Shown in pieces: positions 31,471 to 31,698 of a stretch of 64,000 bases of DNA (position 1 is its first letter; every line of letters begins with the position of its first letter). The position numbers and the translations under genes were made by a program. The DNA is taken from assembly GCA_002633005.1 (NCBI GenBank), contig NMRA01000247.1, positions 131,401-195,400 of the forward strand. Reading direction: 5' to 3'. Under the pieces are notes generated by a model that made no database searches, was not told the DNA's origin, and saw only the letters and a program-made list of their open reading frames with translations. The stretch is from Phoronis australis (Eukaryota; Animalia; Phoronida).

Positions 31471-31609
31471 GGTGTCTGGAGGTGAACTATTTAACTTTGT
31501 GCTGGAGAGAGACAAGTTGGATGAGGAGGAAGCCTCTACCTTCATCAAACAGATACTCAAAGGCGTGCGCCATATGCATTCCAAGGATATAGTACATCTT
31601 GACCTCAAG
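31471..31609 (+). CDS. DAPK1: DAPK coding exon 3 (ends in catalytic loop HLDLK)
   Basis: TTACAG acceptor; [46 protein letters not shown]; donor GTAGTA at 31610, with further in-frame candidate donors downstream. Confidence 0.93.
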
Positions 31610-31698
31610 GTAGTATATCTCAACCTCAAGATAGTATATCTCAACCTTAAGGTAGTATATCTCGACCTCAAGGTAGTATATCTTGACCTCAAGGTAGT
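31589..31698 (+). repeat. 5 x 21-nt tandem repeat spanning the exon 3 donor
   Basis: RTAGTAYATCTYRACCTYAAG units at 31589, 31610, 31631, 31652 and 31673, plus GTAGT at 31694. Confidence 0.95.

What the first reader, a model, noticed from the sequence alone, without database searches (positions are those of the whole stretch)
31589..31698. Kinase catalytic loop tandemly amplified across its own splice donor, creating four in-frame candidate 5' splice sites
Seen: the last 21 nt of exon 3 (IVHLDLK, containing the catalytic Asp) are followed by four diverged copies: [36 protein letters not shown] donors occur at 31610, 31652, 31673 and 31694. The first three have the same -3..+6 context (AAG|GTAGTA), and all are in frame with no stops. 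Donor 31610 gives the normal HLDLK-PEN. Donor 31652 adds 14 aa and puts YLNLK before PEN, the Asp-to-Asn change used to make kinase-dead mutants. Donors 31673 and 31694 add 21 and 28 aa ending in YLDLK-PEN. Inference: slippage on the exon/intron TAGT microhomology produced the array, and donor choice or copy number could set the ratio of active to inactive DAPK without triggering NMD.
Basis: partly seen in the sequence, partly recalled or inferred. Interest (0 to 1): 0.8.

Follow-up and report, generated by a model that had tools for sequence, protein, structure and literature searches.

The report
Repeated splice donor in DAPK intron
In an animal's death-associated protein kinase gene, a 21-base piece covering an exon's end and its splice signal is repeated five times in a row, but the few RNA reads available use only the first signal, so the extra copies are likely harmless intron DNA of a kind already known from lancelets and humans.

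Summary
The array is real: five 21-nt units (31589-31693) with in-frame GT donors at 31610, 31652, 31673 and 31694, at the end of the catalytic-loop exon of a DAPK1-like gene. Contigs from two DNA runs of one sample, possibly the assembly's source, carry it unchanged. The proposed activity switch is not supported. In two RNA runs all 9 reads reaching the exon end stop at 31609, 8 visibly continue into the exon at 33499, and depth is zero from 31612 on. The sample is small (5-9 molecules, so up to 28-45% alternative use is not excluded) and the RNA animals were not genotyped. The five unit changes are all transitions, and Asp-to-Asn is a CpG-type change. Another animal has a separate array at the homologous donor with a frame-breaking 25-nt period. 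This is a known kind: lancelet 'mirages' and the human F7 intron-7 minisatellite, where only the upstream donor is used. This scan reported the same kind before in other genomes. Verdict: a new, likely neutral member.

The parts
31471..31609 (+). Catalytic-loop exon of a DAPK1-like kinase gene (139 nt); ends in HLDLK, and its last Lys aligns to DAPK1 chain residue 141
   Evidence: AG acceptor and GT donor; best PDB hits are DAPK2, DAPK3, DAPK1; covered by stranded RNA reads
31589..31609 (+). Unit 1, exonic (IVHLDLK)
31610..31611 (+). Donor GT used in every junction read seen
   Evidence: 9 of 9 reads end at 31609; 8 show loose ends matching the exon at 33499
31610..31630 (+). Unit 2, intronic (would read VVYLNLK)
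   Evidence: no RNA depth from 31612 on
31631..31651 (+). Unit 3, intronic (would read IVYLNLK); begins AT, so no donor at 31631
31652..31672 (+). Unit 4, intronic; begins with unused pseudo-donor 31652
31673..31693 (+). Unit 5, intronic; begins with unused pseudo-donor 31673; the copy closest to the exon unit (2 differences)
31694..31698 (+). Last pseudo-donor, followed by unique intron sequence; likely the pre-duplication donor context (inferred)
   Evidence: weaker predicted U1 pairing, -6.3 versus -8.5 kcal/mol
33499..33619 (+). Next exon (PEN...DFG...GTPEFV), the acceptor partner
   Evidence: RNA loose-end consensus equals its first 30 nt; gene model

Best explanation
This is a 21-nt minisatellite spanning the splice donor of a DAPK1-like gene; it likely arose by replication slippage or unequal exchange between a short exon/intron overlap, the RNA reads seen use only its first donor, and the four intronic copies are likely neutral pseudo-sites that leave the kinase normal. 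Shown: the array, the gene, and the 31609-33499 junction. Inferred: one duplication seeded by the TAGT overlap, then stepwise expansion with point mutations in a nested order (unit 5, 4, 2, 3). Inferred: the first donor wins by position (upstream-first selection, as shown experimentally for human F7), because donors 31610, 31652 and 31673 are identical from -3 to +8 and the used one is not predicted to be more accessible. Predicted side effect: the duplication and the shared C>T at +7 allow a longer U1 pairing with one bulged U1 base, making the first three donors stronger than the last.
For:: X6 has 4 reads and X7 has 5 reads reaching 31609 (from bin depths 3.43 and 4.29 over 12 of 14 bases); 3 and 5 loose ends match the exon at 33499 with agreement 1; depth is zero in 31612-31849; all these reads also cover exon sequence upstream of unit 1, so they are not misplaced; zero depth in 31614-31691 in X5, X6, X7; 5 of 5 unit changes are transitions, 3 non-synonymous and 2 synonymous (P = 0.44 for at most 3 of 5 under neutral transitions); probability of staying stop-free by chance 0.77-1.0; CpG o/e 0.64; 1 of 34 distinct GT/GC junctions of the homologous exon from metagenome contigs (L031) has its own array, period 25, whose read-through hits a stop after 3 codons; among 121 read-through ORFs, P0054 has a 9-aa copy and P0006 a 56-aa copy; the used donor is predicted the least unpaired (0.13 versus 0.53, 0.19, 0.35), so masking does not explain the choice. 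PMC1557585 (abstract, introduction, discussion read): in F7 only the most upstream of 5-9 identical donors is used, even where downstream sites would keep the frame. PMC3087553 (passages): amphioxus mirages do not disturb regular splicing.
Against: Only 5-9 independent molecules (mates may overlap), so the 95% upper bound on alternative use is 45% to 28%. About 19% of each run was read, tissues are unknown, and X5 gave no junction read. No intronic RNA read covers the array, so the RNA animals may lack it; the genome looks very polymorphic (a 94%-identical duplicated block across the gap). PMC1557585's introduction reports that human CBS and 6-16 do use two pseudo-sites besides the authentic donor. 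An earlier scan note describes a case where the last donor is used (e1-9353532, unchecked).
Confidence: 0.84

Rival explanations
1. Leaky but unregulated use: downstream donors are used at a low level in carriers and give in-frame transcripts that escape NMD and encode kinases with a 14-28 aa insert, with no selected role.
For: Donors 31652 and 31673 match the used donor from -3 to +8 and have the same predicted U1 pairing. Human CBS and 6-16 use nearby pseudo-sites (PMC1557585 introduction). The read count leaves room up to 28-45%.
Against: 0 of 9 junction reads, and zero depth over units 2-5. F7, LMNB2 and PDGF use only the authentic donor.
Confidence: 0.12
2. Regulated switch: donor choice or copy number sets the ratio of active kinase to a dead Asn-for-Asp or insert-bearing form.
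For: All donors are in frame, and the junction lies right after the catalytic Asp.
Against: No alternative junction seen. The substitution pattern is neutral-looking and the Asn codon is a CpG-type change. The parallel array in L031 breaks the frame. Tyr in place of His need not inactivate: PKA has Tyr164 in its YRD motif (PMC3797032 passages), so two of the three alternative forms keep a plausible catalytic loop.
Confidence: 0.03
3. Assembly artefact: the array was made by misassembly.
For: The assembly has a probable uncollapsed haplotype elsewhere in the window.
Against: The units differ from one another by 1-4 bases. Independently assembled contigs from two DNA runs hold the whole stretch with 0 differences, although they may come from the same animal.
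Confidence: 0.01

Closest known systems
Amphioxus 'mirage' minisatellites (Adh3, globins BflGb6 and BflGb9); PMC3087553, passages read
   Same: [quoted passage not shown] The 21-nt unit is within the 10-72 bp range given for Adh3.
   Different: Different gene and probably a different animal group (not identified here). Length polymorphism and somatic instability are shown for mirages but were not tested here. Here the unit is a multiple of three and covers the catalytic Asp.
Human F7 intron 7 37-bp VNTR, with LMNB2, PDGF, CBS intron 13 and 6-16; PMC1557585, abstract, introduction and discussion read
   Same: The first unit spans the donor, identical pseudo-donors follow, and only the most upstream is used (F7, LMNB2, PDGF).
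   Different: The F7 unit is mostly intronic (4 bp exon, 33 bp intron); here it is almost all exon-derived, so every alternative donor would be in frame. CBS and 6-16 use some pseudo-sites; none was seen used here.
DAPK1/DAPK family kinases (host gene)
   Same: Best PDB hits of the exon are DAPK2, DAPK3 and DAPK1. The 306-aa model is 55-66% identical to DAPK-like proteins, including named vertebrate, octopus and lancelet DAPK1. A following exon matches DAPK1 residues 277-306 weakly (E = 0.048). The intron after HxDLK is common: 121 of 150 hits read V or A there.
   Different: Ankyrin, ROC-COR and death domains were not found in the window, so full DAPK1 architecture is unproven. The tree leaves the protein in an unresolved fork with the DAPK groups.

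Membership tests
Donor-spanning minisatellite ('mirage' / F7 IVS7 type) | Head-to-tail repeat whose first unit contains an authentic exon-intron boundary | tested here: met
   authentic junction shown by RNA reads
Donor-spanning minisatellite ('mirage' / F7 IVS7 type) | Downstream units keep donor-like sequences (pseudo-sites) | tested here: met
   3 further AAG|GT sites; one potential site is AT
Donor-spanning minisatellite ('mirage' / F7 IVS7 type) | Normal mRNA is made from the most upstream donor | tested here: met
   9 of 9 reads; low depth, RNA animals not genotyped
Donor-spanning minisatellite ('mirage' / F7 IVS7 type) | Copy-number polymorphism or instability | tested here: inconclusive
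   Only one DNA sample laid (X1 and X2); one contig each, identical to the window; contigs can drop alleles
Regulated alternative 5' splice-site cassette | Two or more donors used in mRNA | tested here: not met
   0 of 9 reads use a downstream donor; minor use not excluded
Regulated alternative 5' splice-site cassette | Conservation or selection on the alternative segment | tested here: inconclusive
   Substitutions fit neutrality but number only five; no sister-species genome was available
DAPK family kinase (host gene) | Kinase domain closest to DAPKs, with HxD lacking Arg, followed by a calmodulin-regulatory segment | tested here: met
   the regulatory-segment match is weak (E = 0.048) and its role is recalled knowledge
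DAPK1 proper (host gene) | Ankyrin repeats, ROC-COR and death domain | tested here: inconclusive
   No convincing tblastn match in the window; the gene may continue beyond 64000

The most novel reading that the evidence does not exclude
In animals carrying the array, some tissue or stress shifts splicing to the downstream donors and yields NMD-proof DAPK isoforms: one with Asn at the catalytic Asp (dead) and two with a YLDLK loop and a 21-28 aa insert (possibly active). Repeat number would then tune death-kinase output, and the HxDLK donor of DAPK genes would be a recurrent birthplace of such switches across animals.
Probability: 0.05. Interest if true: 0.7.

Novelty: new member of a known kind. 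Interest (0 to 1): 0.17.

Why it matters
Little, as it stands: the kinase mRNA seen is normal and the arrangement is a described class. It is a tidy natural example for testing upstream-first donor selection outside mammals, with three donors identical from -3 to +8 lying 42 and 63 nt apart and no frame penalty to hide minor products. The repeated appearance of such copies at the homologous DAPK donor in other animals is a small lead on where these arrays form. It would matter more only if downstream donors proved to be used and regulated.

Tried and rejected
No whole genome is held, so no genome-wide background of donor-spanning arrays and no search for paralogues. No RNA holder was listed by the word index; the RNA runs came by species label and were judged by laying them. 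The first lay was swamped by an intronic repeat at about 31850-32950, so its joint tables were uninformative; only its depth table was used. X3 and X4 were never laid; X5 and X8 only, where neither gave a junction. The search for homologous proteins gave 0 hits for the exon and 3 for the upstream exon; the organism was not identified. The tree (36 rows) did not resolve the subfamily. The translations printed were in the wrong frame and were redone. RNA-structure masking of downstream donors was rejected. A short inverted repeat at the exon end as the cause of the array is not supported: the predicted DNA hairpin is only -1.2 kcal/mol, and 11 of 34 homologous junctions have one of 5 bp or more while only 1 has an array. 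The tandem GT at 31613 is not used in the reads and pairs poorly with U1. PMC9311317 was searched for competing-donor passages and gave nothing relevant. Literature searches for DAPK1 + D139N and DAPK + minisatellite + intron + splice donor returned 0 papers; one search returned 2 unrelated papers; some searches were seen as listings. The statement that Asp-to-Asn is a usual kinase-dead change is therefore recalled, not sourced. No structure of an insert isoform was predicted. A sequence look-up in earlier findings gave only unrelated hits and a place look-up gave none.

Full report
Observation. The array is as described. Five 21-nt units run from 31589 to 31693, plus five more matching bases. 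TRF scores it 169 with period 21, 5.2 copies and no indels. Donor-like AAG|GT sites lie at 31610, 31652, 31673 and 31694 in one frame; unit 3 starts with AT and offers no donor. Joined in a script to the acceptor at 33499, the downstream donors add 14, 21 and 28 residues. Contigs from DNA runs X1 and X2 cover 31430-31849 in one piece with no difference. These two runs are one sample that may be the assembly's source, so they rule out misassembly but are not a second individual.

Host gene. The exon 31471-31609 matches DAPK2, DAPK3 and DAPK1 best among 339 PDB sequences hit. Eight exons between 29154 and about 58740 have AG acceptors; seven have a GT donor at the modelled end and the eighth was cut arbitrarily. 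They give a stop-free 306-aa model with the usual kinase motifs, 55-66% identical to the 24 best-scoring DAPK-like proteins fetched. The exon at 44871 matches DAPK1 277-306 weakly. Ankyrin, ROC-COR and death domains were not found in the window, and the tree does not resolve the subfamily, so I call it DAPK1-like. The intron position is widely shared: 121 of the 150 best protein hits continue with V or A after HxDLK, as expected for gene calls that read through a GT or GC donor.

RNA test. Three RNA runs with the same species label were laid; about 18-19% of each was read. In the focused lay, X6 and X7 each placed 7 reads, all at least 99% alike and on the sense strand. Bin depths show 4 (X6) and 5 (X7) reads reaching 31609 and none beyond 31611. 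Loose ends of 3 and 5 of them equal the first 30 bases of the exon at 33499. Depth just upstream of unit 1 (4.14 and 5 in 31584-31597) shows these reads are anchored in unique exon sequence, and none fits two places. X5 gave no junction read. So 9 of 9 reads end at the first donor and 0 of 9 use another. Mates may overlap, so this is 5-9 molecules; the 95% upper bound on alternative use is 45% to 28%. No intronic read covers the array, so the RNA animals are not known to carry it. That caveat has weight, because the genome looks highly polymorphic.

Signs of selection. The units differ by five substitutions, all transitions, which nest without conflict in the order unit 5, 4, 2, 3 (the order is my inference). 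Three alter a residue and two do not, as neutral transitions would (15 of 21 are non-synonymous; P = 0.44). Five random changes would leave the frame stop-free with probability 0.77-1.0. The Asp-to-Asn change is G>A in a CG created by the silent T>C seen in unit 4, and the window is CpG-depleted (o/e 0.64, with TpG and CpA at 1.27). Six of the 14 arrays in the window with period 15 or more and score 50 or more have a period divisible by 3. Of 13 such arrays checked, only this one touches a modelled exon boundary. Five changes give little power, but nothing points to selection.

Parallel cases. Of 80 metagenome loci, 34 were distinct GT/GC junctions of the homologous exon, many probably from related hosts and one with almost no intron sequence. 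One of the 34, L031, carries its own array across this donor: period 25, 4.3 copies. Its exon is 61% identical in DNA to the window's, and its read-through stops after three codons. Among 121 read-through proteins (97 with at least 10 residues after the donor), P0054 repeats the last 9 residues and P0006 a 56-residue exon-sized block. P0024 shows a decayed 12-residue periodicity, and P0001 is probably a gene-model artefact. Protein read-throughs can only show in-frame copies. Such arrays thus arise at this donor more than once, with or without frame preservation. I have no background rate, so 'hotspot' is unproven.

Mechanism. Shown: the array and use of the first donor. Inferred: misalignment between TAGT in the exon and TAGT at the intron start duplicated 21 nt, and later slippage expanded it. 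The new upstream donors are hybrids of the old intron start and exon sequence. RNAduplex, using a recalled U1 5'-end motif, predicts -8.5 kcal/mol with one bulged U1 base for 31610, 31652 and 31673, -6.3 for 31694, and -5.0 to -7.0 for six other donors of the gene. A register with a bulged U1 pseudouridine is listed for 501 human sites in PMC4856993 (passages read; I could not see whether it is marked as validated). This would explain why 31694 loses, but not the choice among the three equal sites. Folding does not explain it either, since the used donor is predicted the least accessible. Position remains, and it has experimental precedent in F7.

Comparison with what is known. Leads from earlier scan notes sent me to two papers, which I then read in part. 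PMC3087553 (passages) describes amphioxus 'mirages', tandem repeats across exon-intron boundaries that keep splice signals yet do not disturb regular splicing. PMC1557585 (abstract, introduction, discussion) shows that in human F7 the pseudo-donors are functional but only the most upstream is used, even though some downstream ones would avoid a premature stop. It also names CBS and 6-16, where two pseudo-sites are used too, which keeps low-level leakage possible here. For the insert isoforms, Tyr at the His position occurs in active PKA (PMC3797032 passages), so only the +14 form would be expected to be dead; none was modelled. Searches for a report on this arrangement in DAPK found none, within the open-access library only. 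Supplements of these papers were not opened.

Verdict. A real but ordinary donor-spanning minisatellite, a new member of a known kind, most likely neutral (0.84). Unregulated leakage gets 0.12, a regulated activity switch 0.03 and an artefact 0.01. Interest 0.17.

Noticed in passing
window 41411-45739 and 47251-49904: Two blocks 94% identical on either side of the N gap (46988-47250) each hold copies of two kinase exons (44516-44561 and 48662-48707, identical; 44871-44960 and 49017-49106, one silent difference). The first block has an extra 1.7 kb (about 42400-44100). Likely an uncollapsed second haplotype; a true exon duplication is not excluded.
   Followed up: partly
window 31906-32752: Element with long inverted ends (about 310 bp, 83% alike) in the same intron, with related sequence at 42395-44105; many RNA reads from other copies pile on it. 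MITE-like or a DNA-transposon remnant.
   Followed up: partly
L031 1625-1856 and 2299-2877: Besides the 25-nt donor array, a related 74-nt unit is repeated about 2 and 7.8 times further into the intron, apparently derived from the same exon end.
   Followed up: partly
window 31598-31609: The exon end holds a 5-bp inverted repeat with a 2-base spacer; 11 of 34 homologous junctions have one of 5 bp or more, including L031 (7 bp). The predicted hairpin is weak.
   Followed up: yes
window 53190-54831 and 2264-4159: Fragments that look like a non-LTR retrotransposon: a reverse-transcriptase-like frame at 53190-53918 and an endonuclease-like frame at 3479-4159 (recognised by eye); 2264-2869 matches 53239-53848 inverted at 89%.
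   Followed up: no
L005, L007, L008, L010 (exon end): The homologous donor is GC rather than GT in four metagenome loci.
   Followed up: no
window 59608-59810: Perfect tandem duplication of 101 nt; recent, or an assembly slip.
   Followed up: no
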